A stretch of 13,530 bases of DNA from Candidatus Iainarchaeum sp. (GCA_038736825.1 JAVYME010000001.1:1-13530); one strand, 5' to 3'. Positions 1-13,530 are shown, numbered from the stretch's first letter. Numbers and translations: made by a program. Notes: generated by a model not told the origin, from the sequence alone.

Positions 1-1199
1 TGCATGTTGAAGGCTTTCCCCCAAAAACAATATTAAAGGCTTTGAGCACCACAGACCTTGAATTGAAGCCATTGCTGCCCCCTGACAAGGATCCATGCGA
101 AAGAATAATAGACTATTATGGTGGAAAAAAAGACGATCCAACCACTTGCCTTTACTTTGAGGGACCCCCAAACGAGGGACAAATGTACAAGGACCTGCAA
201 AGAATGTATCCCAATAAAAGCAAGGAATTCTTGATGACAGAGCTTGCAATCCAAAAAGCTCGCTTTTTCACAATGCCAGGCAACGATATAACCCAGTACA
301 ATATTGTTTTCGGCATAATGCTCACAGCAGCCGCTTGCTTTTTCACATGGTTCTATTTTAGGAACATTTACAAGCGCAGAATCCAGGAAAAAATAATGAC
401 AATAGAAACAGAATTCAAGGACTCTTTATACATAATTGCTTCAAGGCTTGGGGAAAACAAGCCCTTAGAGGAAGCAATAAGGCATGCAAAAGAATTCCTG
501 CCAAACTACATTATTTCAGACAGAATTTTTGGCAGAACCCTGGACAACATTCACTTGCTTGGCATGCCCATAGACTCAGCAGTGTTTGACCCACGCTTTG
601 GCTCGCTAGTGAACATTCCATCAAACACAATCCATGTTGGAATGCGCTTGGTGATAGATGCAACAAGGCTTGGAGTCAACATTGCAGCAAGAACACTGGT
701 GTCATTGTCACTCCAGCTTGACAATCAGGAAAAGGTTGCAAAAATGCTCAAAAACCTGGTTGTAGACTTAACCCAGATGATGAGAACAATGGCAATAATA
801 ATAACCCCCATAGTGCTAGGCATAACCACAGCGCTTTACACAGTGGTATTGCGCACTCTCTTAAGAATCGCCACTTCCGAAACAATGTCAGGAATAGAGG
901 AATCAAGCAAGGCAGCACGGGAAGCCGGAGCCTTTGGAGGCTTCACTTCAGGCAGTTTTGCAAAAGCAGAAGCAGTAATCAACATGGTAACCCCGGAATG
1001 GTTCATAATAATCATTGCAGTTTACGTGATTGAAATAGTGTTCATTGTAATCTATTTCACCACAAAAATAGAGGAAGACAACGACTTGCTCATGAAAATA
1101 TACCTTGCAAAATACCTTCCAATTGCACTAATAATGTTCGCAATATCCGTAACCCTTTCCAATCTTCTCCTCAACTCCTTTGGAGTGGTTGGAGGATGA
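1..1199 (+). CDS. Polytopic membrane platform protein of a type IV filament system (T2SS-F domain; FlaJ/TadC/PilC-like), 5'-partial
   Basis: The track ORF 42..1199 starts at a TTG. The same frame (codons from nt 3: H V E G F P P K T I L K A ...) has no stop back to the window edge, so the gene is probably truncated by the window. The translation has a soluble helical block (ETEFKDSLYIIASRLGENKPLEEAIRHAKEFLP...GMPIDSAVF...LVIDATRLGVNIAARTLVSLSLQL). Hydrophobic helices flank it (IVFGIMLTAAACFFTWFYF; AIIITPIVLGITTALYTVVL; WFIIIIAVYVIEIVFIVIYF; LPIALIMFAISVTLSNLLL). This is the layout of a T2SSF-type domain. It sits directly upstream of pilin-like genes, and its stop overlaps the next start (ATGA at 1196-1199). 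Confidence 0.6.
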   Translation, partial: HVEGFPPKTILKALSTTDLELKPLLPPDKDPCERIIDYYGGKKDDPTTCLYFEGPPNEGQMYKDLQRMYPNKSKEFLMTELAIQKARFFTMPGNDITQYNIVFGIMLTAAACFFTWFYFRNIYKRRIQEKIMTIETEFKDSLYIIASRLGENKPLEEAIRHAKEFLPNYIISDRIFGRTLDNIHLLGMPIDSAVFDPRFGSLVNIPSNTIHVGMRLVIDATRLGVNIAARTLVSLSLQLDNQEKVAKMLKNLVVDLTQMMRTMAIIITPIVLGITTALYTVVLRTLLRIATSETMSGIEESSKAAREAGAFGGFTSGSFAKAEAVINMVTPEWFIIIIAVYVIEIVFIVIYFTTKIEEDNDLLMKIYLAKYLPIALIMFAISVTLSNLLLNSFGVVGG

Positions 1200-1666
1200 A
1201 AACAAAAAAAAGCGAAAAAGGCATGTTTTGGCCCTTCAGGCTGCTCATTGCAGTAATCATTGCATTTGCAACCCTAATCATAATTCTTAGCACAATAAAC
1301 TATTTCCACCAGTACAGGCTCAAAGTCAGCTGGCAAAGGTTTTTGAACGCTTTTGAAGATGCCTACAATGCCCCAAGCACTCCAAGCCAGCCGGACAAAG
1401 GCATAAAAATAGAAAAAGACCTCGTGTTTGGCACAACCACAATTTCCTCAATAACCCTGGCACAACAATTCAACATGCCAGAGGAATGCATTACCTTTCA
1501 AGCACCAGGCTATTCGCAAATTGAAATCTTAAACTCTGGAAAAACCGCAAAAATCTCAAGGGAAATCAATTCAGCAGTATACTTTCAATGCATTGTTGAC
1601 GAAACAGACACTGCCTGCAAAACACGCTGCTATATTTCCTTCAGCCTTCCGCCGGAAATCCCCTAA
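1196..1666 (+). CDS. Small pilin-like protein with class III (type IV prepilin-like) signal peptide
   Basis: The 156-aa ORF is translationally coupled to the upstream gene (ATGA overlap, with GGAG/GGAGG just upstream). The N-terminus is MKTKKSEKG|MFWPFRLLIAVIIAFATLIIILS: a short basic leader ending in KG, then a ~22-residue hydrophobic helix. The helix and the C-terminal Cys pattern (..VYFQC..TAC..TRCYISFS) parallel the ORF at 7575 and the N-terminus of the ORF at 1704. Confidence 0.6.
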   Translation: MKTKKSEKGMFWPFRLLIAVIIAFATLIIILSTINYFHQYRLKVSWQRFLNAFEDAYNAPSTPSQPDKGIKIEKDLVFGTTTISSITLAQQFNMPEECITFQAPGYSQIEILNSGKTAKISREINSAVYFQCIVDETDTACKTRCYISFSLPPEIP

Positions 1667-1670
1667 GGAC

Positions 1671-1682
1671 AAAATATTTTAA
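1671..1682 (+). promoter_or_regulatory. Archaeal TATA-box-like element upstream of the giant vWA gene (implies a leaderless or near-leaderless mRNA)
   Basis: aaaatattttaa is centred about 27-28 nt upstream of ATG 1704. There is no SD-like motif between it and the ATG. The intergenic gap is only 37 nt. Confidence 0.4.
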
Positions 1683-1703
1683 CAAGTAACACATAATCTT
1701 AGC

Positions 1704-4700
1704 ATGGAACAAAACACTTTCAGGCTGGCAGCATACGCTATAATTGCAGCAGTCCTGCTCTACATTTTCTTCTTCCACTTCGGCCCGCAATACATCTGGA
1801 AGGAAAAACCAGAACAAGTAATCCAAAACCAGCTCAAAACAGCGGAAACACAGATAGGGCATTACTCGCACCAAAAAGGAGAATTCCCAAAAGGCTTCAC
1901 AGTAATGGCAGACGGCTATGAATCCCAGTCAAGAAACGTAAACTTTGAATGCAATTACGATGTTTTCTGTTGCCCGAAAGGCGAGCCCTGCAATAAAGCA
2001 ATAGAATGGGACAACAACATGGAACGCCGCTATTTTTCCTTCAAACAACAAAAGCCAGTGGATGTATCAGCAAGATGCAGATACGAAGAAATATACATTT
2101 GCAAAGTATACCTTGGAAAAGAACCCGCACAAGTAAAAATAACAGAAACCGCACTATCAGAAAAAACCCTGGACTTGTCCCAAAAAAGAACCACCACAAT
2201 AAACTACAGCATAAAAAACACTGGCCAAAAAGAAATGGTTGCAGTGCAAGCAAAAGCCAAACTCTACAAAATCAAAAGGCTTCCATACGGGCTTGAACCG
2301 GAAAAAACACTCGTACGCGAATTCAAAGGAGAAGAATTCGCGCTCGGCATCGGACAAGAAAAAAGCCAAGAAATAAGCATAGCAATAGAGGAAAACGGCG
2401 ATTACCAGATAGAATTAACAGTGGAAGAAAAAACCGATCGCACAAACTATGAAACAAAAAAACTGGACTTGAACGCCACAGGACTGGTGGAAATCGGGGC
2501 ATGCATTCCAGGCCCAATGGAAAAAGAATATTTTTCAGAAAAAGAATGCCGTTACTATTTGCCCTGCGAAGACTGCAAAAGCATCCTGGAATGCGAAAGA
2601 AAATGGCGGGAAAAATTCTCAAACCTGCAAGGCTTTGAATTCGAATTAAAAAAATACGATGACATAAAAGGCAAAATAATAATGCAAGTGCCAGGCGAAC
2701 ACAGAAGGGAATGCACGCGCAACTGTTACCCAGAATACCAAGTGCTGCAACAACTAGCAAGATCAAGAAAACCCATAGACTTGGTTTTCGTAATAGACGC
2801 TTCAGGCTCCATGAGCGACGACATAGATGAAGTGCGCGGCGTAATAGAAAAAATACAGCAAGAAATAAGCACTGGCTGCAAAATAGGCGAAGACCAAGTG
2901 GGAGTGACACCAGAAGAATGCCTGCAAATAGGCTTGTATGTTTTTGAAGGCTCTTTCAAGGACTGCTGGGAAAACCCGCAAAACCCGTTCTTTGCAAACT
3001 GCTTGAAACAAATGCGAAGCACCCCCCTGGTCACACAATACGATTCCTATGCATATGTTGCATGCTTGAACGCTGAAGCAAACTTAGTCGACTTCTATAA
3101 AAAAAAATGCCCAAATTATTCAAGCCCACAGACACAGGCAATGTGCCAGAAAATTTTAACAGAAGTTGGAAGCGACACCCTGAAAAAAAACATTGATTCA
3201 AGGATACCGCAATCATGCAGGGAAACAACCTATTTCCAAAACCCCTTGAATGCAACCCCATCACTTAACGGCGTACAGTCAGACATAGGATATATTCCAA
3301 TAACAACAGAATTTGAAAAAATAAACGAATCCCTTGGAAGGATTATTGCCTCACAGGGCGTCGAGGCATGGAGTGACGCACTATACTTTGTAATGGCTTC
3401 ACCTCAAATGAACTGGAGACCCAACTCTGAAAAAGCAATAATCCTGATAACCGACACTGCAGACAACCCCAACGGAATCACCTATCTCACTCCAGAAGGG
3501 CCTTACACTGAAACAGAAGGCTCAGAGAAAAGCTTGCAGGAAACAGCGCTTCTCGCACAAGAGAAAAAAATAAGGGTTTTTTCGCTGGAAGGAAAAGGCT
3601 GTGATGCTTTTTCAAACGAAATCAAAACAGCACTCAATAATTACCTTTCAAGCTTTGGTTTAGAGTCAGCAGGAGGGTACCCTGAAGTCTGCCCTGGAAC
3701 AGACCTTGCAGCAATAAGCAATTGGACCAATGGCAGCCACATGCAATACAATCAAGCAAGCGATCTCCCGCAAAAAATACTGGACATTGTAAAGGACGAA
3801 GTGAGAAGAGCAAGCGAAAACCATGTCTTGAAAATCTGTGGAGAAAACGAAGCACCGGAAACCTGCAAGGAATACTGTGCACTGCCATGGGAAAGCAAGT
3901 GCCAGGACTGCTCTTGCTTTAAAGAATTTGATGGAAAAATTGAAGGTTACAGGCTGCTTGACCTAGCACTAATAATTGATGCCACTGGAAGCATGCAAAA
4001 AGAACTCCAGACAATGAAGGAAAAAATCGGAGAAATACTAGATGCCGCGCAAGCAGAATGCAAAAAAATCGGTGTAAAAAACTGCCTTAGTGTTTCCACA
4101 AGGTATGTGTTCGGCGGGCCAACCACAAAAAACCAGCCTTTTTCAAGCAACATGCAAGCAATAAAAAACAATATTGCAAGCGCCACCGCACTTGGAGGCG
4201 GAGACCTTCCAGACCCATGGGCGGGAGAAGCCCTGATTTCACTCAAAGGAATAATAAGGGAAAACAAAACAGAGCAATGGAGCCCGCACTCCAAAAAAAT
4301 AATGGTGATAATCACTGACGCTCCAAACAATCCCGACGAAATAGTCTTTGAAGACTATAGAAGAACAGTAAAAGCCACTCCAGCCACAACAGGAATAGAC
4401 AGCGTGATAACAGAATTAAGAGACACCGCAAAAAGAAACGGAATAAAAATTTTAGGACTTTACAGCGAAGACAATCCAGCCATTTCACCAAAAACACAGC
4501 TTGAATGGCTTGCAAGGGAAACCGGTGGAAAAGCAGTCAATTACACAAAAGGACAGGATTTTTCAAGCGAAATCACTTCACTGATAGTGCAAGAAATAAA
4601 AAGCGAAAGCGAAAAATCATGGTGCACTCCAGACCAGTGCAAGGTTTGCGCGGAAAGAACAGAGGATGCAGCCACAGTGCCACTTGAATGGGAATACAAG

Positions 4701-6008
4701 CTGAGCTGCACTGAAGACACAGAAAAATGCATGACTGTAATGACCTGCTATCCAGCCGAACTTTCCTTCACTGAATGCATTAAAAAATGGACTGAAACAG
4801 TTGTTGACAAAAGCACTCCATTATTGCAAGACCAGGAAAAAAAATGGCTTTACGCTGAAGGCATAAAGAAAAAAAACGGCGTGAAAACAAGCGAAGAAGA
4901 CTGGACTGAATGCGATCTGCCAAAAATAACAGAAACCTGTGGGGGCAGCACAGTGAAAAGAGGCGAATACAGGCCAGTGCAAATAGGTCCGTATGTGAGC
5001 CCAAGGGAAAACTGCACGAGCAATGAAGACTGCGAAACAATGGATTGCAGCACAAAACAATGCCCTGAAGGCCAAACTGCAAAAGGCGAATGCAGTGCCA
5101 GTGGAAAATGCGAGTGCACTTGCAGTGAAGAAATCGGAAAATTGCCTTCTACAGCCAGTGAAATTGAATGCGTTGAAAAACTTGCTGAAACCGATAACTG
5201 TTATTGTGAAACAGGCAATGAAGCACTGGAATACGCTGACAGGGTGCGAGAAGGCGGAAAGCCAGTGGACTTGCTATTGGTTGTTGACGCCACTTACAGC
5301 ATGCAACTTGAAGGAAAAGCTCTCGTGGAAGCATTCAGTGCACTAAACGAAAAAATGAAAGAACCCTGTGTTTTGGAAGACGGAAAAGCCTGCCTTGCTG
5401 TCGGCATAATAACAGTTGGAGGTTATGCAGCCCAGCGTGAAAAAAACCATTTCGTGAAAATTTCCGGTTCAGGCTTTCCCGTCCTTGAAAAAGGCTTGGG
5501 AGCAATAAGCATTTCCCATCGCTCGGAAGACATTGAAAAAATGCTTTCCTCTCTTGAAACCATTGGCTTTGTTGAAGAAGAAGAACCCTGGGCTGACGCC
5601 ATAGCATATGCTTTGAAATCGCCGGCAATGGGTTGGAGAGAAAACGCAAAAAAAGCATTACTGCTTATTGCAGGTGAACCAAATAATGCTTCAAAAACAG
5701 CGCTGGCTGAAGCAAAAAACATTATTGCCTCCAGCAATGCATCAGTTTATGCGGCTGTCAAAAACATGTCAACTGGCGGAATGTCGCCAGAAAAAGACGC
5801 ACAGGCAATAAGTGCAAAAAAAATATCCCCTTATTCCATTCAATTAGCACTAGACTATTCAAAAATCCAGTTCGATGATTCAGGCAAACCCTTTACAGAC
5901 ATACTCAAAATATTCTTGAAAGACATTGCAGAAGAACAAATATTGTTTGCAAAGAAAACCCCAAAATGCGCTCCAGAAAAATGCACTGAATGCAAAACCG
6001 CCGGATAA
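1704..6008 (+). CDS. Giant (1434 aa) cysteine-rich surface protein: pilin-like N-terminal module, CARDB-like Ig domain and three vWA/MIDAS modules (candidate modular pilin or pilus-associated adhesin)
   Basis: Uninterrupted 4.3-kb ORF. The N-terminus MEQNTFRLAAYAIIAAVLLYIFFF aligns with the hydrophobic helices of the two small pilin-like ORFs (PFRLLIAVIIAF / TFKLLIAAIVAV). The following ~110 aa share RNV.F.C and C.V.L-type motifs with them. Three vWA beta1/MIDAS signatures are present: DLVFVIDASGSM (nt 2778), DLALIIDATGSM (nt 3960) and DLLLVVDATYSM (nt 5268). Each is followed by a (P)W(A/S)(D/G) helix and a hydrophobic beta4 strand (ILITDTADN / VIITDAPNN / LLIAGEPNN). Confidence 0.75.
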   Translation: MEQNTFRLAAYAIIAAVLLYIFFFHFGPQYIWKEKPEQVIQNQLKTAETQIGHYSHQKGEFPKGFTVMADGYESQSRNVNFECNYDVFCCPKGEPCNKAIEWDNNMERRYFSFKQQKPVDVSARCRYEEIYICKVYLGKEPAQVKITETALSEKTLDLSQKRTTTINYSIKNTGQKEMVAVQAKAKLYKIKRLPYGLEPEKTLVREFKGEEFALGIGQEKSQEISIAIEENGDYQIELTVEEKTDRTNYETKKLDLNATGLVEIGACIPGPMEKEYFSEKECRYYLPCEDCKSILECERKWREKFSNLQGFEFELKKYDDIKGKIIMQVPGEHRRECTRNCYPEYQVLQQLARSRKPIDLVFVIDASGSMSDDIDEVRGVIEKIQQEISTGCKIGEDQVGVTPEECLQIGLYVFEGSFKDCWENPQNPFFANCLKQMRSTPLVTQYDSYAYVACLNAEANLVDFYKKKCPNYSSPQTQAMCQKILTEVGSDTLKKNIDSRIPQSCRETTYFQNPLNATPSLNGVQSDIGYIPITTEFEKINESLGRIIASQGVEAWSDALYFVMASPQMNWRPNSEKAIILITDTADNPNGITYLTPEGPYTETEGSEKSLQETALLAQEKKIRVFSLEGKGCDAFSNEIKTALNNYLSSFGLESAGGYPEVCPGTDLAAISNWTNGSHMQYNQASDLPQKILDIVKDEVRRASENHVLKICGENEAPETCKEYCALPWESKCQDCSCFKEFDGKIEGYRLLDLALIIDATGSMQKELQTMKEKIGEILDAAQAECKKIGVKNCLSVSTRYVFGGPTTKNQPFSSNMQAIKNNIASATALGGGDLPDPWAGEALISLKGIIRENKTEQWSPHSKKIMVIITDAPNNPDEIVFEDYRRTVKATPATTGIDSVITELRDTAKRNGIKILGLYSEDNPAISPKTQLEWLARETGGKAVNYTKGQDFSSEITSLIVQEIKSESEKSWCTPDQCKVCAERTEDAATVPLEWEYKLSCTEDTEKCMTVMTCYPAELSFTECIKKWTETVVDKSTPLLQDQEKKWLYAEGIKKKNGVKTSEEDWTECDLPKITETCGGSTVKRGEYRPVQIGPYVSPRENCTSNEDCETMDCSTKQCPEGQTAKGECSASGKCECTCSEEIGKLPSTASEIECVEKLAETDNCYCETGNEALEYADRVREGGKPVDLLLVVDATYSMQLEGKALVEAFSALNEKMKEPCVLEDGKACLAVGIITVGGYAAQREKNHFVKISGSGFPVLEKGLGAISISHRSEDIEKMLSSLETIGFVEEEEPWADAIAYALKSPAMGWRENAKKALLLIAGEPNNASKTALAEAKNIIASSNASVYAAVKNMSTGGMSPEKDAQAISAKKISPYSIQLALDYSKIQFDDSGKPFTDILKIFLKDIAEEQILFAKKTPKCAPEKCTECKTAG
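2133..2430 (+). other. CARDB-like / Ig-like beta-sandwich domain inside the giant ORF
   Basis: Segment KITETALSEKTLDLSQKRTTTINYSIKNTGQKEMVAVQAKAKLYK...EISIAIEENGDYQIELTVEE. The ..v.v.NtG....v.v.l. pattern is typical of CARDB-type domains. Recognised by eye only. Confidence 0.4.
2778..3600 (+). other. vWA module 1 (complete DxSxS MIDAS motif; contains a long insertion)
   Basis: DLVFVIDASGSMSDDIDEV ... GLYVFEGS ... VEAWSDALYFVMASP..NSEKAIILITDTADNPNG ... KKIRVFSLEG. The C-terminal boundary is approximate. Confidence 0.6.
3960..4600 (+). other. vWA module 2 (DxTxS MIDAS variant)
   Basis: DLALIIDATGSMQKELQTMKEKIGEIL ... RYVFGG ... DPWAGEALISL ... SKKIMVIITDAPNNPDE ... NGIKILGLYSED. Boundaries are approximate. 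Confidence 0.6.
5268..5940 (+). other. vWA module 3 (degenerate MIDAS: DxTxS, with the beta4 Asp position replaced)
   Basis: DLLLVVDATYSMQLEGKALVEAF ... GIITVGG ... EPWADAIAYALKSP..NAKKALLLIAGEPNN ... ASVYAAVKN. The residue equivalent to the TD of modules 1 and 2 is AG. Boundaries are approximate. Confidence 0.5.
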
Positions 6009-6015
6009 AAAAATT

Positions 6016-6021
6016 GGAGGG
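6016..6021 (+). promoter_or_regulatory. Shine-Dalgarno-like GGAGGG serving ATG 6030
   Basis: GGAGGG is followed by an 8-nt spacer (ATAAAAAA) and then ATG. No comparable motif precedes the TTG at 6065. Confidence 0.55.
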
Positions 6022-6029
6022 ATAAAAAA

Positions 6030-7429: not shown

Positions 7430-7538
7430 CCGCAAAAGGAGCATGCCTGGTAACAGCAAAAACCACTGAAACCACAAAACAAGCAGTTTTCACTGCAAAC
7501 TAACAACAAAAAATACTGCAAAAAAAAAACAGTTAGCC

Positions 7539-7548: not shown

Positions 7549-7574
7549 CCTGAGCAGTCATTATCATTGGTTAA

Positions 7575-8183
7575 ATGAATTTTTTAGGGGTGAAGAAAGT
7601 GTTTTTTTTGGGACAAAAAGGACAAGCCTTTTCTACATTCAAATTGTTGATTGCTGCAATTGTGGCAGTAGTGATACTGGTTATTTTGCTTTCAATTTTG
7701 GGCATAATAAATTTTTCGCCCAGAAACCAGCCGATTGTGGGTGCAACTGATGCTTTAAAGGAAGCATACCAGACAAAGACTCTTCTTTACACTAGCCGAG
7801 AGCCAGTGACTTTCACAAGGGATAACAGTATTATTACCAGCATGGCAATAGTGGAAAGAGCAAATGTTGGGTTGGCTGAAGACCAAGTGTGCTTGAGTTT
7901 GGGAGAATTGACAGATGCTGCCTCATTAGCTGGGTTTAAAGGAAATGATGAAGGCGCTTGGAAAAAAATAGAATACACTGCTGGCGGTCAAAGGAACGTA
8001 AAGTTTGCAGTTCTATGCATGGAGGGAAAGAGCATTCCAGACCAGGTTGGAAGCGACCAGGTTGGAAGCGGCAACACCTATCAAGATATAGACGAGGCTT
8101 GGGTTGAAAACTGCCCTTGCGTGAAGGATAAAACCATTAACAAAGACATTTGCTGCGTTATAATGCTAAAGTATGCAAGGTAA
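7575..8183 (+). CDS. Pilin-like protein with class III signal peptide (KGQ|AFS type)
   Basis: 202-aa ORF. The N-terminus is MNFLGVKKVFFLGQKG|QAFSTFKLLIAAIVAVVILVILLSILGIINF. The KGQ-x-S context followed by a ~25-residue hydrophobic helix resembles archaeal type IV pilin/Epd-type prepilins. The C-terminal half is Cys-containing (VCLSLG, AVLCMEG, NCPCVKD, DICCVIMLKY). A GTG at 7590 (giving MKKVFFLGQKG|Q) is an alternative start. Confidence 0.65.
   Translation: MNFLGVKKVFFLGQKGQAFSTFKLLIAAIVAVVILVILLSILGIINFSPRNQPIVGATDALKEAYQTKTLLYTSREPVTFTRDNSIITSMAIVERANVGLAEDQVCLSLGELTDAASLAGFKGNDEGAWKKIEYTAGGQRNVKFAVLCMEGKSIPDQVGSDQVGSGNTYQDIDEAWVENCPCVKDKTINKDICCVIMLKYAR
8040..8069 (+). repeat. Perfect 15-bp tandem duplication (gaccaggttggaagc x2), in frame inside the pilin-like gene (DQVGS-DQVGS)
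   Basis: Unit 1 is 8040-8054 and unit 2 is 8055-8069. They are identical when read directly from the sequence. Confidence 0.9.
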
Positions 8184-8206
8184 AAAAAAAAACAGAATGG
8201 AACAAA

Positions 8207-8845
8207 ATGGTTTCAAAAAAACCCGCGGGCTTTTTTCAAAAAGCCCGTTCTTTTTTTTATCGCGGCCTTGAAGGAATTGCAGTTGAAGAGTTCAGGGAGA
8301 AGGCTGGCGAAGAGGCAAAAAAATCTGCAAAATTTTTGTTTTTAGCCTTTTTCTTTATTTTTGCCCTTTTTGTGCTTTCAAGCCTTGTGCCATTGGAGTG
8401 GAGTGAAAGGCTTGTGGCAAACACTGTGCTTTACGGCTTGAACTCGCAAGGCTTGAAGGGCAGAATTGAAGCCTCTCCCACTGGAGATGCTGTCCTGATA
8501 TTATTGGAAAACGGTCCAAGAATAGAAATATCGTATCTTTGCACTGGGCTTTTGGAAACAATATTGCTTGCTGGAGTTATTTTAGCCTCTGCAGGCATTC
8601 CAATATATAAAAGAATAATTGGTGTGATTGTTGGAGGGATTGCTGCAATGGTTTTAAACCTTGCAAGGATTTTCATCACTATTTTTTTCATTTACAATTC
8701 TGGCATTGAAACAGTGGAATTCATTCACGATTTTTTTTTCCGTGCCTTCCTGTTTGTTTCGGTTTTCTGCATTTATGCTTTTTGGTTTAAGTGGGCGACA
8801 GGCGGTTTCAGTGAAAGGCAGTCTGTAAAAAAAAAAACAGGTTGA
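8207..8845 (+). CDS. Exosortase/archaeosortase-family integral membrane protein (short form, ~212 aa)
   Basis: The track gives a TTG at 8150, which overlaps the previous gene. The first in-frame ATG after that gene's stop is 8207 (MVSKKPAGFF...). The protein is multi-pass hydrophobic. It has the family-like signature order Cys in EISYLCTGLLETILLAG (codon 8540-8542), Arg in AMVLNLARIFITIFF (8666-8668), then IHDFFFRAF (His 8726-8728, Arg 8741-8743). This resembles the CSG ... N..RI ... H/R motifs of exosortase/archaeosortase enzymes. Recognised by eye only. Confidence 0.65.
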   Translation: MVSKKPAGFFQKARSFFYRGLEGIAVEEFREKAGEEAKKSAKFLFLAFFFIFALFVLSSLVPLEWSERLVANTVLYGLNSQGLKGRIEASPTGDAVLILLENGPRIEISYLCTGLLETILLAGVILASAGIPIYKRIIGVIVGGIAAMVLNLARIFITIFFIYNSGIETVEFIHDFFFRAFLFVSVFCIYAFWFKWATGGFSERQSVKKKTG

Positions 8846-8859
8846 AGCCGGGATTAATG

Positions 8860-8896
8860 AAAAAGTATAATAATAACTATTGAGCATTAATTAACT
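8860..8896 (+). promoter_or_regulatory. AT-rich candidate promoter region for the untracked giant ORF
   Basis: Two TATA-like strings are present: agtataataata (about 8864-8875) and ttaattaa (8887-8894). A weak SD-like aaggga (8914-8919) precedes ATG 8927. I cannot tell which element, if either, is used. Confidence 0.25.
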
Positions 8897-8926
8897 GGCT
8901 CTTCATTGCAATCAAGGGATTCAAAT

Positions 8927-11900
8927 ATGGGTGTTTCTGACTCTTTGAGCGGTATTTACATTAAGGCAGAGGATGCCTGGTACAAGCTGGTGGACTCGCT
9001 TTCAGAAAAAGGCATTCCATTATATGCTTACACTGATTTTTTGGACAAGCGCGGCATTCCAAGTTTTCCTTTCACAATTGCCCTCATATTCATTTTGTTG
9101 GCGCTTGCAATTTTTTTCCTTGCAGGAAACAATGTAGAAGTGAACCTCAGACTGCGCTTTTCCGACGAAGAAGGAAATCCAGTAAACGATGTTTCAGTGT
9201 CTGTTTCATATGATAGTGGCACAGCAATAGGGAGCCAGAAAATGGCAAGCAATTCCACTTGGACTATTAAAAACGTGCCAATGAACTCTAAAATTGTTGT
9301 TTCTCCGAGAAAAGAGGGCTTTGAACCTCCAAAAGAGCAAACCATTGTTGCTGACGGGCGAAAAGAACACCCTCTTTCTTTTTCCTTTAAAAAACCGCGC
9401 ACTTACATTACCGGCTTACTGCAAGTGAAATCTTCCACTGGCACAACAATAAAGAACGCTGAATGCCTTGTTTTGACTGATGAAAAACGCCAAATAAAAG
9501 GCTTGCAGGTTGAAGACAAGATTTCTTTTGCCAACGTGCCAGCCGGCATTCCGGTTGTTTTGACTTGCAGTGCAAGTGGGTATGAAAGCATAGATGAAGA
9601 GGAAGTCATATTCAAAAAAGACACTGTTTACTTTGTTTCAATGAATCCCAAAACCGCAGGTCTTGAAGGAAAAGAGCGCGTGAACGTGCTTTTCAGGTTG
9701 CTTGACAAGGAATCAAAAGAACCAGTGGGAATTGCCAAAATCAGGATTTTCAAAGAAGGCGATGAAAAGCCATTGTTTGAGGATGAAACAGATGAAACAG
9801 GAGAGTATGTTGCAGAGATTTTAGCTGGAACCATAATAAGGGCTTCAATTGAAGCCCAAGGCTATATTTCAAAAAACACTGATCCTGTCACTGTTGTCAA
9901 AGAAATGCCTCCAATAATTGTATTAATGGAATTGGGTGGCAGGACTGTTTCTGTCACAGTTGTTTCAAAAACCGGACTGCCAGTGAATGACGTGATTGTT
10001 TCATTGTACACTGAGGACGGCGTTCTAATTGAATCCAAAAAAACCACTAGCGGGCCTTTTGGCGGAAACGCTGTTTTTGCAAACTTGGATCCAAACAAAA
10101 CCTATTACCTTACTGCATACAAGCAGGGTTTTTTGCCAAAGCGCGTCAAATTCTCTCCATCAGAAGAACCTGACTTGAAAATAGAGCTTGAAAACGCAAG
10201 CCCGAGCAATTCTGCAAGGCTTACTCTCACGGTTTTGGATTCAGAGGGCTTGCCTGCAAAAAATGCAAAAATAAGGTTTTATGCATTAGAGGGTGACAAA
10301 AAGGTTCCGCTTGGCATTCCACAAATGGAAACAGACATGCAGGGAAAAGTCAGCGTTATAGTGCCAGAAGGCAAACTGTTAGTGGAGGCAGAAACAGACA
10401 CTGAAATCCAGAGAAAAGAGTTTGACATCAAGGCGGGCAATGATGTCACTGACACGATTTCAATGGAGCGCAAACCCAACCTTGTGGAATTAAAGTTTTT
10501 GGATGACGAGGGAAACCCGATAAAGGGCGACATCATAATTCGCTCTAAAAGCGGGGAAATTCTTTTCAAGGGGCGTCCCTCCAAGGACGGAACAGTGGTT
10601 TTTGACGCAAAGGGCAATGAAACCTTTGACGTGGAAGTCACAACTGATAACGGCAAAAAGTTCACTGAAGAGGTTAGGATTGGGGGAGAAAAAAAAGCCA
10701 CTGTCACAATTACAACAACTGAAGCAAAGCTTTTCCCAAAAATAGAGTTTGCTGGAGTGTTTGACGGAAAAGGGCAAAAAGTGGAAGGCATTTCAAGAGG
10801 AGAATTTTACTGGCTCAAGTTTGTTGTTTCCTGGCAGAGCAATGAACAGGCAGGCGTTCACATAAGGCTTGGCGAAGACGAAAAACCCTTTGCTGAATCC
10901 ATGGAATTCGGTGTTTACGGGTTTGATGCTGTTGCCAGAAGGTTTTTTTACGGGAAAAGCTATCAGCCTCCCTTGGGCACAAGGGAAGACAAAGCCAATT
11001 CTGGAACCGCGGGAGAAAAAAACAAGTTTGTTGAATTGTATTTTGACCAGCCAGCGGACCAGCAAGTGATAAAGGTTAAAGTGAAAGCCAACGAAATTGG
11101 CACTGCAACAAAAATGCCTGTTTATTTCAGGGCTTGGGTGAAAGCAGGCACTCAATATTACAGGGATCCCGAAGACAGCGAGCTTGAAAAGGCATTGAGC
11201 ACAAACACCAAGGCATCCCTTTACGCTGCCACCAAAAAAGAAGAAGTCAAAATCTTTTCCTCAAAGCCAAAGTGCGCTGAAGGAATATGCATTGAAGCCT
11301 CCTTCTTTGATGATGAAAGCAGAGAGCAAAAAAGCCAGGATTTCAGGGCAGTGATTGGAAGAAGGTATGCAATAGAGGCAAGGGTTAGCGCTGACGCTGT
11401 AAAAACCGTGGAATTGACTGCAGAAACAACAGAACAGGAAAAAATAAGGTTTTCAGAATTCAGGGAGGGCACAAGCACTCTCTGGCCTGATTCAGGCTAT
11501 GACAAGCAAAGCGTTTCAATAAGCGGATTGCGGGTTTCAGAGTCAACCACTGCAAGAGCAAGAGCCTATTTTGAGGCAAAAGCCCAAGGCACTGGATATA
11601 TTAAAATAACAGCAAGAGAAGGCGAAAAACAGGCAGAGCAAAAGTTTTATTTCAAGATAACAGGCATAAGGGAAATGGATTTAGTGCTTGCAGGCAATGG
11701 TTCCATAAAACCGGGTGAAAAGCTCTCACTAACCTTAAAAGAAAAAGAAACCGGTTATGCATTGACAGACGCACAATTCACTGTTCTTTCCGGTGAAAGG
11801 CCTGTTCTTTTCTTTAAGGGAACAGGTGAGGAAGGCAATGGCCTTGACGGCAAATATCTTTTGGGAACCGAAACACTTGGCCCTGGCGCTTACAAGTTGA

Positions 11901-13530
11901 TTGCTTCAAAGCGCGATTACCAGGACAAGCAGGCACAGTTCACTGTATCAATTGAAAACATTTTGACACTGGAAGGCGAGCCAGAGTTCTTCCTTGACAA
12001 AGCCAAAACACAGGCAACCTTTCCACTTACAATAAAAAACAATGTGGCAACAGCAAAAGTGGAATCCCTTTCATACGAATTTTATCCTCAAAAAGGCTGG
12101 CTTGAAAACTTTTCGCTTGAAGTGCCGCTTCCAAGCGGTGGAATAAGAGGCGGAGGCTCAGTCTTTCCAGTGCTAAAAGCAGCATACATTGGAAGCGAGC
12201 CAAATGCAAGCGTTCACGCTGAAGGCGAACTCTTAATCAGGGGAGTTTTAGACACTGGCTTGGTTGCAGAGGCAAAAACCCAAGTGAAGGCAAACTACAA
12301 CAAGCCAGTGCCAAGCGAATGCCTTGAAATAAAGCCTTCAACAGTTGAAGCCTCCATTCTGGGAACAGCGAATTCAACCACAACAGTTGAAATTACAATA
12401 GAATACAAAGCCTCGGAAAAATGCAGGGACGCTTTATTGCTTAAAACCAGTGCAGAGCCAAAGCGAAAAACCGAACAACCACTGAAAATAACAGCGCCGG
12501 ACATAAAAATTTCCCCAGGGGAATCAAAAACAGTGGCAATCACTATAACAAATCCAATTGAAAGGCAAACAGAAGGAATGCAGTCAGCGGATTACACTTT
12601 AACAATTGAATCCGAAAAAGTAACCAAGAGCGCTTTGCTGAAAGTCTACTTTGTAAACCCGTATTTTTCGCTTCAAACAAACGACAACATTCCCATTTTT
12701 GCAACCTTGGGCGAAGACGGCAAAGTAAGAGGGCTTGCCCCATTATACATAAGCAATGTTGGCAGGAAAACAATTGAAAACATAAAAGCAAAAGAAAGCG
12801 GACTCATCACAAAAAAACATCCCTTCAATGTAAGAATCAGGCCTTCAGAGATTGCACTTGCGCCGCAAGCGGAAGCAATTGCAACCCTGAAAAGCGGGGA
12901 ACAAATAACACCTCCATGGATTATAGAAGTAACATCCGATGCAGCAACCTATGAAAGCGAATACGAAATATACATTGACATTAGCGGCACAATTGACGGC
13001 AAAAACTATAATCCAATGAAAACCATAAAAGCAATAGTAAAAGTCTCCATTTCGCAATGCTTAAAACTGATTTCAGCCGCAGGCGGCTTGGAATTCTCAA
13101 GCCCGGACAGCTCGCAAGGAGTAATATCAAAAAAAGTAACATTGAAAAACCAGTGCGGGGAAGGACTCAGAAACATAGAAATCCTGCCAGCAAGATTTGG
13201 ACAAAACGAGATATCATTATACAGAGCCAATGCACTCAACAGCCTTGGCATTGGCGAAGAAGCAGAATTCCAGGTAAGGCTTACAAAAAGAAGCGATTAC
13301 TTCAACCAGTCAAACCCTGAAACAATAATTGCAAGAGGCTTGCTTGAAAACAGCCAGGAATTCATAGAATCAAACCCGTTATCCATAATAATAATGATAG
13401 GACAGGTTCCGGAAACAGCGCCAGGCCCATCATTTGACGAAGTACAAATACCTGTCTGCGAATCCGACACCAAAGAAATCAAAGCCGTAAGGTTCCCTCA
13501 AACTGCAAGAGAAGCAGAATGCGAAAGAGC
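8927..13530 (+). CDS. Giant surface protein, 3'-partial (>1534 aa): N-terminal cytoplasmic segment, one signal-anchor helix, six tandem Ig-like repeats and further Ig/CARDB-like domains. Not present in the supplied ORF track.
   Basis: I translated the frame starting at ATG 8927 codon by codon to 13528 and found no stop. An in-frame stop lies upstream at 8888-8890, and a TTG at 8906 is an alternative start. The N-terminus is MGVSDSLSGIYIKAEDAWYKLVDSLSEKGIPLYAYTDFLDKRGIPSFPFTIALIFILLALAIFFLAG (helix about 9065-9127). The rest is beta-rich and shows RNY-type codon periodicity. All track ORFs in 9028-13482 are on the opposite strand, are 60-170 aa long and are rich in Phe, Ser, Leu and Cys, as expected for antisense shadows. 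Confidence 0.85.
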   Translation, partial: MGVSDSLSGIYIKAEDAWYKLVDSLSEKGIPLYAYTDFLDKRGIPSFPFTIALIFILLALAIFFLAGNNVEVNLRLRFSDEEGNPVNDVSVSVSYDSGTAIGSQKMASNSTWTIKNVPMNSKIVVSPRKEGFEPPKEQTIVADGRKEHPLSFSFKKPRTYITGLLQVKSSTGTTIKNAECLVLTDEKRQIKGLQVEDKISFANVPAGIPVVLTCSASGYESIDEEEVIFKKDTVYFVSMNPKTAGLEGKERVNVLFRLLDKESKEPVGIAKIRIFKEGDEKPLFEDETDETGEYVAEILAGTIIRASIEAQGYISKNTDPVTVVKEMPPIIVLMELGGRTVSVTVVSKTGLPVNDVIVSLYTEDGVLIESKKTTSGPFGGNAVFANLDPNKTYYLTAYKQGFLPKRVKFSPSEEPDLKIELENASPSNSARLTLTVLDSEGLPAKNAKIRFYALEGDKKVPLGIPQMETDMQGKVSVIVPEGKLLVEAETDTEIQRKEFDIKAGNDVTDTISMERKPNLVELKFLDDEGNPIKGDIIIRSKSGEILFKGRPSKDGTVVFDAKGNETFDVEVTTDNGKKFTEEVRIGGEKKATVTITTTEAKLFPKIEFAGVFDGKGQKVEGISRGEFYWLKFVVSWQSNEQAGVHIRLGEDEKPFAESMEFGVYGFDAVARRFFYGKSYQPPLGTREDKANSGTAGEKNKFVELYFDQPADQQVIKVKVKANEIGTATKMPVYFRAWVKAGTQYYRDPEDSELEKALSTNTKASLYAATKKEEVKIFSSKPKCAEGICIEASFFDDESREQKSQDFRAVIGRRYAIEARVSADAVKTVELTAETTEQEKIRFSEFREGTSTLWPDSGYDKQSVSISGLRVSESTTARARAYFEAKAQGTGYIKITAREGEKQAEQKFYFKITGIREMDLVLAGNGSIKPGEKLSLTLKEKETGYALTDAQFTVLSGERPVLFFKGTGEEGNGLDGKYLLGTETLGPGAYKLIASKRDYQDKQAQFTVSIENILTLEGEPEFFLDKAKTQATFPLTIKNNVATAKVESLSYEFYPQKGWLENFSLEVPLPSGGIRGGGSVFPVLKAAYIGSEPNASVHAEGELLIRGVLDTGLVAEAKTQVKANYNKPVPSECLEIKPSTVEASILGTANSTTTVEITIEYKASEKCRDALLLKTSAEPKRKTEQPLKITAPDIKISPGESKTVAITITNPIERQTEGMQSADYTLTIESEKVTKSALLKVYFVNPYFSLQTNDNIPIFATLGEDGKVRGLAPLYISNVGRKTIENIKAKESGLITKKHPFNVRIRPSEIALAPQAEAIATLKSGEQITPPWIIEVTSDAATYESEYEIYIDISGTIDGKNYNPMKTIKAIVKVSISQCLKLISAAGGLEFSSPDSSQGVISKKVTLKNQCGEGLRNIEILPARFGQNEISLYRANALNSLGIGEEAEFQVRLTKRSDYFNQSNPETIIARGLLENSQEFIESNPLSIIIMIGQVPETAPGPSFDEVQIPVCESDTKEIKAVRFPQTAREAECER
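9134..10720 (+). repeat. Six divergent tandem ~85-90-aa Ig-like repeats (CarboxypepD_reg / Cna-B-like pattern) at the protein level
   Basis: Units start near 9134, 9404, 9674, 9941, 10211 and 10478. Each has the pattern hydrophobic strand + D/S-x-x-G-x-P-(V/I)-x-x-A/V-x-(V/I) ... G ... hydrophobic strands ...G(Y/F)... Examples: LRFSDEEGNPVNDVSVSV, RLLDKESKEPVGIAKIRIF, VVSKTGLPVNDVIVSLY, TVLDSEGLPAKNAKIRFY, KFLDDEGNPIKGDIIIRS. The DNA-level identity between units is low. Confidence 0.6.

What the first reader, a model, noticed from the sequence alone, without database searches (positions are those of the whole stretch)
1..13530. Locus-level hypothesis: pilus machinery, a vWA giant, an archaeosortase and a giant adhesin form one co-directional attachment module
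Seven tightly packed + strand genes have overlaps or gaps of 0-145 nt. They combine two surface-display systems that are normally discussed separately:
- A type IV pilus-like system: platform protein, two small pilin-like proteins and one giant pilin-like vWA protein.
- An exosortase/archaeosortase-family enzyme next to a >1534-aa multi-Ig surface protein.

A secreted PKD protein lies between them. vWA, PKD, CARDB and Ig-like repeats are all adhesion or ligand-binding folds. A compact A-rich genome segment that spends more than 10 kb on such proteins is what one would expect of an attachment apparatus in a surface-dependent, possibly episymbiotic, archaeon. The functional coupling and the lifestyle are inference. 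Only the gene content and order are observed.
Basis: inference. Interest (0 to 1): 0.8.

Follow-up and report, generated by a model that had tools for sequence, protein, structure and literature searches.

The report
Archaeal pilus, sortase, giant-adhesin gene module
This stretch from a tiny uncultured DPANN archaeon encodes a type IV pilus-like machine next to a small sortase-like enzyme and very large sticky surface proteins; the grouping recurs in about twenty related genomes, so it is probably one cell-surface apparatus, but nobody has yet tested what it does.

Summary
Seven + strand genes fill about 97% of the window, with a 4-nt overlap and gaps of 23-169 nt. The window is the first 13.5 kb of a 157-kb contig from a 'Candidatus Diapherotrites' (Iainarchaeota, DPANN) genome bin.

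- **Assignments that hold:** the exosortase/archaeosortase-family enzyme (signature model above cut-off; Cys/Arg/His invariant), three vWA domains with MIDAS motifs, Ig-like arrays in the giant, and two paralogous pilin-like proteins. The platform holds through full-length orthologues that match T2SSF.
- **Weak assignments:** the PKD and CARDB calls are below cut-off.
- **Synteny:** in every related locus with downstream DNA, the sortase gene is followed by the giant gene. In 15 of 17 loci with enough flank, a FlaI/TadA-type ATPase, the platform and pilin genes lie alongside.
co-directionality is not conserved, since about half the loci are divergent. The vWA giant and the 'PKD' protein are clade-specific inserts.
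- **Sortase target:** full-length giants (about 2,000-2,950 aa) have no C-terminal sorting signal. They carry a conserved leader and a pilin-like N-terminal anchor, so the giant is not a classical sortase substrate.
- **Still untested:** adhesion and an episymbiotic lifestyle remain inference.

I found no published description of this pilus-sortase-giant linkage.

The parts
3..1199 (+). g1: C-terminal half (398 aa) of a ~780-aa FlaJ/TadC/GspF-type membrane platform protein. The gene is cut by the contig end.
   Evidence: The reading frame is open from base 3. NCBI holds an identical protein, 'QXK06_00005, partial'. It is 70% identical to the C-terminal half of the 781-aa L002 orthologue. Nine of 10 orthologues match Pfam T2SSF, best E 3e-07, in their N-terminal half; the window fragment alone gives no hit. 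The AF2 model (pLDDT 84) is all-helical. Its only sensible Foldseek match is the cytoplasmic domain of GspF/OutF, 5nbg_A (prob 0.94, TM 0.68, rmsd 3.1 A over 110 columns, but E 3.2).
1196..1666 (+). g2: 156-aa type IV pilin-like protein. It has a 9-aa basic leader ending in KG, then one hydrophobic helix.
   Evidence: The N-terminus is MKTKKSEKG|MFWPFRLLIAVIIAF, with a single N-terminal hydrophobic segment. Its family is homologous to the g5 family over the whole length (hhalign prob 99%, E 6e-18). An orthologue follows the platform gene in L002, L009, L010, L012, L014, L015, L018, L019, L024, L025, L027 and L035. There is no Pfam or NCBIfam hit.
1704..6008 (+). g3: 1434-aa, Cys-rich (56 Cys) protein with one N-terminal membrane helix and three vWA domains.
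   Evidence: VWA_4 E 1.4e-14 and VWA E 4e-13, both above cut-off. It has a single hydrophobic segment at residues 4-31. There is no KG cleavage motif, and similarity to the g2 N-terminus is weak (E 0.11). Orthologues occur only in L001 and L002. L007 has a free-standing 88-aa ORF equal to its first 82 aa.
2796..2810 (+). MIDAS motif DASGS of vWA domain 1 (g3 residues 365-369).
   Evidence: Regex D.[ST].S on the translation.
3978..3992 (+). MIDAS motif DATGS of vWA domain 2 (g3 residues 759-763).
   Evidence: The best VWA_4 stretch covers residues 754-948.
5286..5300 (+). MIDAS-like motif DATYS of vWA domain 3 (g3 residues 1195-1199).
6030..7429 (+). g4: ~465-aa beta-rich protein, probably secreted. 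The mechanical ORF is 6065..7429. The likely real start, ATG 6030, is out of frame because of the A8 run at 6036-6043.
   Evidence: ATG 6030 follows a GGAGGG ribosome-binding site (6017-6021). One extra A in the run would give MLKKKLFSFVLALLFTAVTVNA|IYTEF, a canonical signal peptide. The two L001 paralogues have signal peptides. PKD_4 reaches only E 0.015-0.045, below cut-off. L002 has an unrelated protein in this slot.
7599..8183 (+). g5: 194-aa type IV pilin-like protein. The ORF is open from 7575; the likely start is GTG 7599.
   Evidence: P0049 (NCBI QXK06_00025) starts MFFLGQKG|QAFSTFKLLIAAIVAVVIL. In 34 homologues the motif [KR]G-QAFSTFKLLIAAIVA is nearly invariant and 4 Cys are invariant. 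The AF2 model (pLDDT 88.7) has an N-terminal helix (residues 11-34), a second helix and a beta-sheet head, but Foldseek finds no PDB match. It immediately precedes the sortase gene in the co-directional loci where that DNA is available (window, L001, L002, L007, L015, L018, L021, L025; in L005 about 670 nt lie between).
8207..8845 (+). g6: 212-aa, four-helix membrane protein of the exosortase/archaeosortase family. The ORF is open from 8150.
   Evidence: TIGR04178 scores 42.8 bits (cut-off 23) and PF09721 26.4 bits (cut-off 25.7). The best named subfamily, XrtX, scores 52 bits against a cut-off of 170; ArtD and pacearchaeosortase score about 17 bits. P0001 is an identical NCBI protein annotated 'exosortase/archaeosortase family protein [Candidatus Diapherotrites archaeon]'. 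It has four hydrophobic segments.
8540..8542 (+). Codon of Cys112, the putative catalytic cysteine, in the invariant motif ISYLCTGLLE.
   Evidence: Invariant in 12 homologues. Position confirmed.
8666..8668 (+). Codon of invariant Arg154.
8726..8728 (+). Codon of invariant His174.
8927..13528 (+). g7: first 1534 aa of a giant surface protein. Orthologues are 1,980-2,949 aa. The gene runs off the window's 3' end.
   Evidence: CarboxypepD_reg E 7.9e-20 and Big_1 E 3e-10, both above cut-off. It has a single hydrophobic segment at residues 42-74. Orthologues follow the sortase gene in every locus with downstream DNA.
8927..9124 (+). Conserved ~42-aa N-terminal leader of g7 (..AEDAWYKLVDSLSEKGIPLYAYTDFLDKRG|IPSFPFT..) plus the membrane helix.
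   Evidence: This is the best-conserved part between distant giants: 49% identity over 55 aa in L030, where the rest barely aligns; alignment. The [KR]G + F-x-F + hydrophobic pattern lines up with the pilin N-termini, but not significantly.
8225..8258 (+). Terminator-like hairpin (10-bp stem) plus T8 run, inside the first 20 codons of g6 and 42 nt after the g5 stop.
   Evidence: Found by the scan. RNA fold gives -17 kcal/mol, z -2.47. The stem is partly kept in L001. Its function is untested.

Best explanation
**What it is.** The window is the start of a conserved cell-surface gene module of DPANN archaea. It is found mainly in Iainarchaeota ('Diapherotrites'), with sortase-giant loci also in two MAGs labelled Micrarchaeota (L020, L034) and in MAGs labelled only 'archaeon'.

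**Core genes (shown by synteny).**
- A FlaI/TadA-type secretion ATPase. It lies beyond this contig's end but is present in orthologous loci.
- A ~780-aa FlaJ/TadC/GspF-type platform (g1).
- Two paralogous type IV pilin-like proteins (g2, g5).
- A small exosortase/archaeosortase-family enzyme (g6).
- A ~2,000-2,950-aa surface protein with Ig-like arrays (g7).
- A ~550-600-aa protein with a pilin-type N-terminus, just after the giant and outside the window.

In the window's own sub-clade the module has also gained a 1,434-aa protein with three vWA/MIDAS domains (g3) and a secreted beta-rich protein (g4).

**Most likely mechanism (inferred).**
1. The ATPase and platform assemble g2/g5 into a type IV pilus-like filament.
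2. The large proteins carry the same kind of N-terminal anchor: a basic stretch ending in Gly, an aromatic-rich stretch and one hydrophobic helix. This applies to g7, to the downstream large pilin and, less clearly, to g3. The same machine handles them as minor or tip subunits, or as base-anchored partners.
3. In this way vWA and Ig-like binding domains are displayed for adhesion to a surface or another cell.
4. The sortase-family enzyme has its Cys/Arg/His placed by hydropathy at the outer face of the membrane. It cleaves and re-anchors companion surface proteins that have a C-terminal helix and basic tail. Such proteins are encoded beside it in several related loci, though not in this window.
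5. Its invariable pairing with the giant means the two act in one pathway, but the giant is not a classical C-terminal substrate.
For: **Source and core linkage**
- Twelve close sortase homologues were found. These, two collection scans and three further look-ups gave about 20 distinct loci.
- The giant gene follows the sortase gene in every locus that has downstream DNA.

**Pilus genes alongside**
- The T2SSE ATPase, platform and pilin genes lie within 10 kb in L002, L009, L010, L012, L013, L014, L015, L018, L019, L024, L025, L027, L029, L030 and L035.
- They are absent only in L017 and L034 among loci with at least 8 kb upstream.
- The linkage survives a change of orientation (co-directional or divergent) and insertions (a TnpB gene in L009, ABC transporter genes in L035). 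That argues for selection rather than inheritance of a single operon.

**Component identities**
- ATPase: T2SSE E 5e-20. Its nearest NCBIfam models are FlaI (E 2e-43) and TadA (E 6e-36).
- Platform: T2SSF in 9 of 10 orthologues, and a GspF-domain structural match.
- Pilins: a conserved [KR]G|Q/M..F..F-hydrophobic N-terminus. The g2 and g5 families are homologous. The model has a helix-plus-head shape.
- Downstream protein: it starts MDKKG|FTLFTALVSFVLILL.
- Giant: its leader and anchor are its most conserved part.
- Sortase: signature above cut-off, C112/R154/H174 invariant, four helices.

**Candidate classical substrates near the sortase**
Proteins with a signal peptide, a C-terminal helix and a Lys/Arg tail are encoded near the sortase in L001, L002, L008/L022, L017, L030 and L034.

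**Adhesion domains**
The vWA domains have intact DxS/TxS motifs. Big_1 and CarboxypepD_reg are above cut-off.
Against: - No experiment or expression data exists. Adhesion is inferred from domain types only.
- The window's own part of the platform has no significant profile hit. Its N- and C-terminal halves show no detectable repeat relation.
- The pilin-like proteins match no pilin profile and no solved pilin structure.
- g3 lacks the Gly cleavage motif.
- No prepilin peptidase gene was seen in any locus.
- The window holds no protein with a C-terminal sorting signal.
- The C-terminal tails of candidate substrates in related loci share no common motif.
- Two loci (L017, L034) keep the sortase and giant genes without adjacent pilus genes.
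- The placement of the sortase active site rests on hydropathy and the positive-inside rule, not on a structure.
Confidence: 0.6

Rival explanations
1. The sortase acts directly on the pilin-anchored giants. It cuts g7 and/or the large downstream pilin at the outer end of their N-terminal helix, or at the conserved Gly/Ala/Cys-rich hydrophobic block near residue 2,050. It then releases them or couples them to lipid or to the filament. This would make the module a sortase-assisted type IV filament.
For: The sortase and giant genes are adjacent in every locus, even where no classical C-terminal substrate lies nearby. In L030 and L034 the sortase gene is followed directly by the large pilin-like gene. 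One database protein, P0159, reads as a sortase joined to a pilin-like protein. An internal hydrophobic block in the giant is conserved across clades, and the ~600 aa after it are variable. ArtA is reported to process a tripartite signal that is not at the C-terminus (review PMC6098224).
Against: The internal block is only weakly hydrophobic (score 1.6-1.7) and has no basic cluster after it. No exosortase-family enzyme is known to act on N-terminal anchors (own knowledge). P0159 contains duplicated linker sequence and an internal Met-start, so it may be a gene-calling or assembly artefact. Classical-looking substrates do occur near the sortase in six loci.
Confidence: 0.2
2. The sortase and giant form a general envelope system, with an S-layer-like giant protein and its anchoring enzyme as in ArtA with the S-layer glycoprotein. 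It merely sits next to the organism's main pilus locus and is not mechanistically coupled to it.
For: In Haloferax the archaeosortase's main substrate is the S-layer glycoprotein (PMC6098224). L017 and L034 keep the sortase and giant genes without adjacent pilus genes. In about half of the loci the two units are divergently transcribed.
Against: Adjacency to the ATPase, platform and pilin genes holds in 15 of 17 informative loci, down to a sortase that aligns only over its core at 31% identity (L030), despite rearrangements. The giant has no C-terminal sorting signal. The giant and the following protein have pilin-style N-termini.
Confidence: 0.15
3. The machine is not primarily an adhesin display device. 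It is instead a type IV filament used for something else, such as DNA uptake, secretion (a T2SS-like piston) or twitching, and the large proteins are its secreted cargo.
For: Type IV filament systems have all of these roles (own knowledge; the archaeal survey PMC4858521 was read). There are up to 6-7 small pilin-like genes per locus, as in pseudopilus systems. In Vibrio a C-terminal sorting enzyme (rhombosortase) works together with a T2SS (own knowledge).
Against: The vWA/MIDAS and Ig-like arrays and the single N-terminal anchors are typical of displayed adhesins. No nuclease, ComEC-like or retraction ATPase gene was seen in the loci.
Confidence: 0.05

Closest known systems
Archaeal adhesive type IV pili (Sulfolobus Aap/Ups, Methanococcus Epd, Haloferax PilA/PilB3C3), as surveyed in Makarova, Koonin & Albers 2016 (PMC4858521)
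   Same: A FlaI/TadA-clade ATPase, a FlaJ/TadC-type platform and several small proteins with a short basic leader ending in Gly and a hydrophobic N-terminal helix are clustered together.
   Different: The platform is a ~780-aa protein with only a weak T2SSF signal. The pilins match no pilin profile or solved structure. No prepilin peptidase lies in the locus. The cluster also holds an exosortase-family enzyme and 550- to 2,950-aa proteins with pilin-style N-termini. The survey does not contain the word 'sortase'.
Archaeosortase A / PGF-CTERM system of Haloferax volcanii, and the ArtB-E, exosortase/PEP-CTERM families (Haft 2012; review PMC6098224)
   Same: It belongs to the same superfamily by the signature model. 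Cys, Arg and His are invariant. It is a polytopic membrane protein. Proteins with a signal peptide, a C-terminal helix and a basic tail are encoded nearby in several related loci.
   Different: It is much smaller (160-220 aa, four helices). It scores below the cut-off of every named subfamily. It comes from DPANN rather than Euryarchaeota. No shared motif was recognised before the C-terminal helices. Its constant neighbour, the giant, lacks any C-terminal signal.
Modular or vWA-bearing pilus proteins of bacteria: TadG of Tad pili (mentioned in PMC4858521), PilY1/PilC tip adhesins, Streptococcus sanguinis PilB/PilC (own knowledge)
   Same: A pilin-like N-terminal helix is fused to vWA/MIDAS adhesion modules and encoded inside a pilus gene cluster.
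   Different: g3 has three vWA domains, 56 Cys and 1,434 aa, and lacks a Gly cleavage motif. It shows no sequence relation to those proteins (one search found no PDB relatives). It is present only in the window's sub-clade.
Rhombosortase / GlyGly-CTERM with the type II secretion system in Vibrio and Shewanella (own knowledge)
   Same: It is conceptually similar: a membrane sorting protease cooperates with a type IV filament-class machine to keep proteins on the cell surface.
   Different: The enzyme family is unrelated (rhomboid rather than exosortase). The system is bacterial, its substrates are defined, and it has no giant pilin-anchored proteins.
Type IV pili plus giant surface proteins of episymbiotic CPR bacteria (Saccharibacteria TM7i, PMC9894109; Vampirococcus, PMC8080830)
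   Same: These are ultra-small, host-dependent cells that invest in pili and in membrane proteins of more than 1,300 aa with PKD, integrin or fibronectin-type domains, thought to mediate host attachment.
   Different: They are bacterial, the giant-protein genes are not described as one conserved operon with the pilus genes, and the Vampirococcus paper does not contain the word 'sortase'.

Membership tests
Exosortase/archaeosortase superfamily | Match to the family signature model above the curated cut-off | tested here: met
   TIGR04178 exo_archaeo scores 42.8 bits against 23. PF09721 scores 26.4 against 25.7.
Exosortase/archaeosortase superfamily | Conserved Cys, Arg and His (putative catalytic residues) in a polytopic membrane protein | tested here: met
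   C112, R154 and H174 are invariant in 12 homologues. There are four hydrophobic segments.
Exosortase/archaeosortase superfamily | Cognate substrates in the same genome with a C-terminal motif, membrane helix and basic cluster | tested here: inconclusive
   None is present in the window. Candidates lie next to the sortase gene in L001, L002, L008/L022, L017, L030 and L034, but without a shared motif. The rest of the 157-kb contig could not be read.
Named subfamilies (ArtA-ArtF, pacearchaeosortase, XrtX and other Xrt types) | Score above the subfamily's curated cut-off | tested here: not met
   The best is XrtX at 52.3 bits against 170. ArtD scores 17.2 against 125, and pacearchaeosortase 17.2 against 80.
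Type IV filament (type IV pilus-like) system | PilB/FlaI/TadA-type secretion ATPase | tested here: met
   It is not in the window, because the contig ends there. It is present next to the platform gene in 15 related loci. T2SSE scores E 5e-20, FlaI model E 2e-43 and TadA E 6e-36.
Type IV filament (type IV pilus-like) system | PilC/GspF/FlaJ/TadC-type polytopic platform protein | tested here: inconclusive
   T2SSF is matched in 9 of 10 full-length orthologues (best E 3e-07), in the half that is missing from the window. The window fragment has no profile hit and no PDB sequence hit. Its model matches a GspF cytoplasmic domain locally (prob 0.94, TM 0.68) but with E 3.2.
Type IV filament (type IV pilus-like) system | Pilins with a class III signal peptide (short basic leader, Gly at -1, hydrophobic helix) and a globular head | tested here: inconclusive
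   The motif and single N-terminal helix are present and conserved in g2 and g5. The model shows a helix plus an alpha/beta head. There is no pilin profile hit and no structural match. Cleavage is untested.
Type IV filament (type IV pilus-like) system | Prepilin peptidase (PibD/FlaK/EppA, Peptidase_A24) | tested here: not met
   None was found within the roughly 10-kb flanks of any locus. Whole genomes could not be searched, so it may be encoded elsewhere.
von Willebrand factor A domain proteins | vWA profile above cut-off and a MIDAS DxSxS motif | tested here: met
   VWA_4 scores 54.4 bits against 27, and VWA 50.4 against 23.8. The motifs are DASGS, DATGS and DATYS at residues 365, 759 and 1195.
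PKD-domain and CARDB-domain proteins | Profile match above cut-off | tested here: not met
   PKD_4 scores 15.8 bits against 27 in g4, and the L001 paralogues do no better. CARDB scores 14-17 bits against 22.7 in g3.
Ig-like / prealbumin-like repeat surface proteins | Big_1 or CarboxypepD_reg profile above cut-off and extracellular placement | tested here: met
   CarboxypepD_reg scores 71.4 bits against 32.3, and Big_1 40.5 against 34.9. A single N-terminal helix places the rest outside the cell (inference).

The most novel reading that the evidence does not exclude
The exosortase-family enzyme is a dedicated part of a type IV filament system. It processes the giant and large pilin-anchored proteins themselves at the outer face of the membrane, cutting them from their pilin-like anchor or coupling them to lipid or to the filament. 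A DPANN cell would thereby display ~2,700-aa adhesins by a sortase-assisted pilus. This would be a mode of surface display not described in any domain, and the first function for an exosortase relative in DPANN.
Probability: 0.2. Interest if true: 0.85.

Novelty: new variant of a known kind. Interest (0 to 1): 0.6.

Why it matters
How DPANN archaea attach to other cells or surfaces is largely unknown, and Iainarchaeota have no cultured member that I know of. This module gives a concrete, conserved set of candidate genes: a pilus machine, a dedicated sortase-like enzyme and giant binding proteins. These could be targeted by metatranscriptomics, by proteomics of enrichments, by cryo-ET or by heterologous expression.

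It also extends the exosortase/archaeosortase family into a new setting. The enzymes are small four-helix forms in DPANN, always paired with a giant protein that lacks the classical C-terminal signal. That raises the question of what the enzyme recognises.

If the sortase acts on pilin-anchored proteins, it would link two surface-display systems that have always been treated separately.

Tried and rejected
1. **Extending the source contig.** Exact look-ups of window proteins (g2, g5, P0001) found nothing. The source genome is not among the GTDB species representatives scanned. The contig could therefore not be extended, and orthologous loci were used instead.
2. **Platform repeat structure.** A profile of the platform family against PDB sequences gave 0 hits. 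hhalign of its N- and C-terminal halves gave probability 1%. The expected internal T2SSF duplication could not be shown.
3. **Pilin fold.** A Foldseek search of the g5 model against the PDB gave only meaningless hits, so pilin-fold membership is not demonstrated.
4. **Solved relatives.** phmmer of g3 and of a full-length giant against PDB sequences found nothing.
5. **A hidden C-terminal anchor on g4.** I looked for a frameshifted membrane anchor after the g4 stop. The overlapping ORF 7219-7503 has no hydrophobic segment, so this was rejected.
6. **A prepilin peptidase candidate.** I considered the conserved 310-396-aa membrane protein of the divergent loci. It has no Pfam or NCBIfam hit and its alignment shows no GxGD-type motif, so this was rejected.
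7. **A Rosetta-stone fusion.** I considered P0159, which reads as a sortase joined to a pilin-like protein. It has a duplicated linker and an internal Met start, so it may be an artefact. It is not used as evidence.
8. **The giant as a polymorphic toxin.** The giant has a variable C-terminal region of about 600 aa. However, no toxin or immunity domains were found, so this was not pursued.
9. **Literature.** Searches for archaeosortase with DPANN or type IV pili, for XrtX/pacearchaeosortase, and for Iainarchaeota pili found no description of this linkage. General remarks on DPANN pilus loci with unrecognisable pilins do exist (PMC6393860).

Full report
**1. What is in the window**

Seven genes on the + strand occupy about 97% of the 13,530 bases.
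- g1: <3..1199. The frame is open to the first base.
- g2: 1196..1666.
- g3: 1704..6008.
- g4: 6065..7429.
- g5: 7575 or 7599..8183.
- g6: 8150 or 8207..8845.
- g7: 8927..>13528.

There is no credible - strand gene, no tRNA and no Rfam family. The coding strand is A-rich.

Proteins identical or near-identical to g1, g5 and g6 are in NCBI. They are QXK06_00005 ('partial'), QXK06_00025 and an 'exosortase/archaeosortase family protein', all from a 'Candidatus Diapherotrites archaeon' MAG, on a contig of 157,382 bp. The window is therefore the first 13.5 kb of that contig.

**2. Gene by gene**

*g6, the sortase.* It is a 212-aa protein with four hydrophobic segments.
- It passes the exosortase/archaeosortase signature model (TIGR04178, 42.8 against 23 bits) and Pfam PF09721 (26.4 against 25.7).
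- It falls far below every named subfamily: XrtX 52 against 170, ArtD and pacearchaeosortase about 17 bits.
- Cys112 (in ISYLCTGLLE), Arg154 and His174 are invariant in 12 homologues.
- By hydropathy and the positive-inside rule these three residues lie at the outer face of the membrane. This is inference.
- An exhaustive profile search of 1.84 billion representatives finds 47 clusters at E <= 1e-30, 175 at E <= 1e-10 and 613 at E <= 1e-3. Nearly all are 160-220 aa. This is a small, distinct subfamily.

*g3, the vWA giant.* It has three vWA domains above the Pfam cut-offs. Their MIDAS motifs are DASGS, DATGS and DATYS. It has 56 Cys and one N-terminal helix. It lacks the Gly motif of the pilins and resembles them only weakly.

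*g7, the giant.* It has CarboxypepD_reg and Big_1 domains above cut-off and one helix at residues 42-74.

*g2 and g5, the pilin-like proteins.* Each has a short basic leader ending in KG, followed by an aromatic-rich stretch and a hydrophobic helix.
- In 34 g5 homologues the motif [KR]G-QAFSTFKLLIAAIVA is almost invariant.
- The two families are homologous over their whole length (hhalign 99%, E 6e-18).
- The g5 model (pLDDT 88.7) is a long N-terminal helix plus an alpha/beta head.
- No pilin profile and no solved structure matches, so 'pilin' rests on the N-terminal signature and on genomic context.

*g1, the platform.* The window holds only its C-terminal half.
- Full-length orthologues are about 780 aa, and 9 of 10 match T2SSF (best E 3e-07) in the half missing here.
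- The window fragment has no profile hit.
- Its model (pLDDT 84) gives one sensible local match, to the cytoplasmic domain of the T2SS platform OutF/GspF (prob 0.94, TM 0.68), at a non-significant E-value.

*g4.* The 'PKD' call is below cut-off. Its mechanical start lies inside what looks like a signal peptide. ATG 6030, behind a GGAGGG site, is out of frame by one base at the A8 run 6036-6043. One extra A gives MLKKKLFSFVLALLFTAVTVNA.

**3. Related loci**

Loci were obtained from three sources:
- look-ups of sortase and platform homologues;
- a scan of GTDB species representatives;
- a scan of JGI metagenomes.

This gave about 20 distinct loci. Those that carry a taxonomic label are DPANN, mostly Iainarchaeota, with two labelled Micrarchaeota. 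ORFs were compared by BLASTP with the window's proteins.

- **(a) The sortase and giant genes are always adjacent.** The sortase gene is followed by a giant-family gene in every locus with downstream DNA. Sometimes the large pilin-like gene comes first (L030, L034) or an ABC transporter is inserted (L035).
- **(b) A large pilin-like gene is part of the set.** A ~550-600-aa protein starting MDKKG|FTLFTALV... follows the giant in most loci.
- **(c) Pilus genes are usually alongside.** A 760-aa T2SSE ATPase lies within 10 kb in 15 of 17 loci with enough flank, and the ~780-aa platform and g2-/g5-type pilin genes accompany it wherever the contig reaches that far. The ATPase is closest to FlaI and TadA. 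Only L017 and L034 lack these genes.
- **(d) Orientation varies.**
  - Co-directional: window, L001, L002, L015, L018, L025.
  - Divergent: L009, L010, L012, L013, L014, L019, L024, L027, L029, L030, L035.
- **(e) g3 and g4 are accessory.** The vWA giant occurs only in the window, L001 and L002, and g4 only in the window and L001. L002 has a different protein in the g4 slot, and L001 has both kinds.
- **(f) No prepilin peptidase is seen in any locus.**

**4. The giant is not a classical sortase substrate**

Full-length giants of 1,980-2,949 aa end without a membrane helix or a basic tail. Their most conserved feature is the N-terminus: a ~42-aa leader (..E[DE]KW[YF].L.D.L..KGIP.Y.Y..FL..[KR]G|IPSFPFT) followed by one helix. 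The last ~600 aa, after a weakly hydrophobic Gly/Ala/Cys-rich block, are the least conserved part.

Proteins that do look like classical substrates occur next to the sortase in L001, L002, L008/L022, L017, L030 and L034. They have a signal peptide, a Pro/Thr-rich linker, a C-terminal helix and a Lys/Arg tail. None is in the window, and they share no obvious motif.

**5. Interpretation**

*Shown:*
- the gene content;
- the family assignments listed above;
- the conserved linkage of the pilus genes, the sortase, the giant and the large pilin.

*Inferred:*
- that g2/g5 form a filament;
- that the proteins with pilin-style N-termini are handled by the same machine and display vWA and Ig-like modules for adhesion;
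- that the sortase trims and re-anchors C-terminally anchored companions, while being functionally tied to the giant.

The main rival readings are that the sortase acts directly on the pilin-anchored giants (the novel reading), or that the sortase and giant form an envelope system merely adjacent to the pilus locus. An episymbiotic lifestyle is not testable here.

**6. Comparison with what is known**

The closest systems are:
- archaeal adhesive type IV pili (PMC4858521);
- the ArtA/PGF-CTERM archaeosortase system (PMC6098224);
- bacterial vWA-bearing pilus proteins such as TadG;
- the general theme of pili plus giant surface proteins in ultra-small episymbionts (PMC8080830, PMC9894109).

DPANN pilus loci with unrecognisable pilins and 'specific surface proteins' have been noted in general terms (PMC6393860). 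I found no paper linking an exosortase-family gene to such loci.

I rate this a new variant of a known kind. It is of real interest to people working on archaeal cell surfaces and DPANN biology, but it rests wholly on sequence inference.

Noticed in passing
window 6017-6065: The likely true start of g4 (ATG 6030, behind a GGAGGG ribosome-binding site) is out of frame with the gene body. One extra A in the A8 run at 6036-6043 would restore a canonical signal peptide. This is either a homopolymer assembly error or slippage/phase variation at the 5' end of a surface-protein gene.
   Followed up: partly
window 8225-8258: A 10-bp GC-rich hairpin followed by T8 lies inside the first 20 codons of the sortase gene, 42 nt after the pilin g5 stop. 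The fold is -17 kcal/mol (z -2.47), and the stem is partly conserved in L001. It may attenuate transcription after the pilin gene.
   Followed up: partly
L014 4141-7959 (-); L024 4912-8730 (-); L027 3417-7196 (-): The pilus ATPase gene carries an intein in three loci, giving products of 1,259-1,272 aa instead of 760. In L014 it matches Intein_splicing (E 5e-23) and LAGLIDADG_3.
   Followed up: partly
L010 8962-9894 (-); L012, L014, L016, L019, L020, L023, L024, L026, L029 (alignment A5): A conserved 310-396-aa multi-pass membrane protein (M.GVIDSF.F.LKKSF..KLWLY) sits between the ATPase and the sortase in the divergent loci. It has no Pfam or NCBIfam hit, and its function is unknown.
   Followed up: partly
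L009 3867-5108 (-): An IS200/605-type TnpB gene (Cas12f1-like_TNB E 1e-24) is inserted between the platform and pilin genes.
   Followed up: no
L001 10752-15044: In this close relative the giant gene stops at 1,350 aa and is followed by an N6_N4 DNA methyltransferase gene. The giant is therefore truncated or disrupted there.
   Followed up: no
L007 215-481: An 88-aa ORF equal to the first 82 aa of the vWA giant g3 (55% identity) stands alone before the pilin gene. It is either a remnant of g3 or its stand-alone N-terminal module.
   Followed up: no
P0159 (ENA contig of 19 kb, not fetched): A 1,102-aa predicted protein reads as a sortase domain (residues 10-188) joined through a duplicated linker to a pilin-like N-terminus (MNSKG|FYAVTPFLGVIIIL) and an ~870-aa body. 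It could be a real fusion or a gene-calling or assembly artefact.
   Followed up: partly
L034 1618-7897: In a Micrarchaeota locus, two large secreted proteins (750 and 1,218 aa) directly upstream of the sortase share a C-terminal ..D[FA]TTV.. + helix + YWNF..[RK]KKK tail. This is the clearest candidate sorting signal seen for this sortase subfamily.
   Followed up: no
L002 10709-18892 and orthologues (giant residues ~2,100-2,727): The last ~600 aa of the giant, after a conserved Gly/Ala/Cys-rich hydrophobic block, are far less conserved than the rest and differ between clades. No domain is recognised there.
   Followed up: partly
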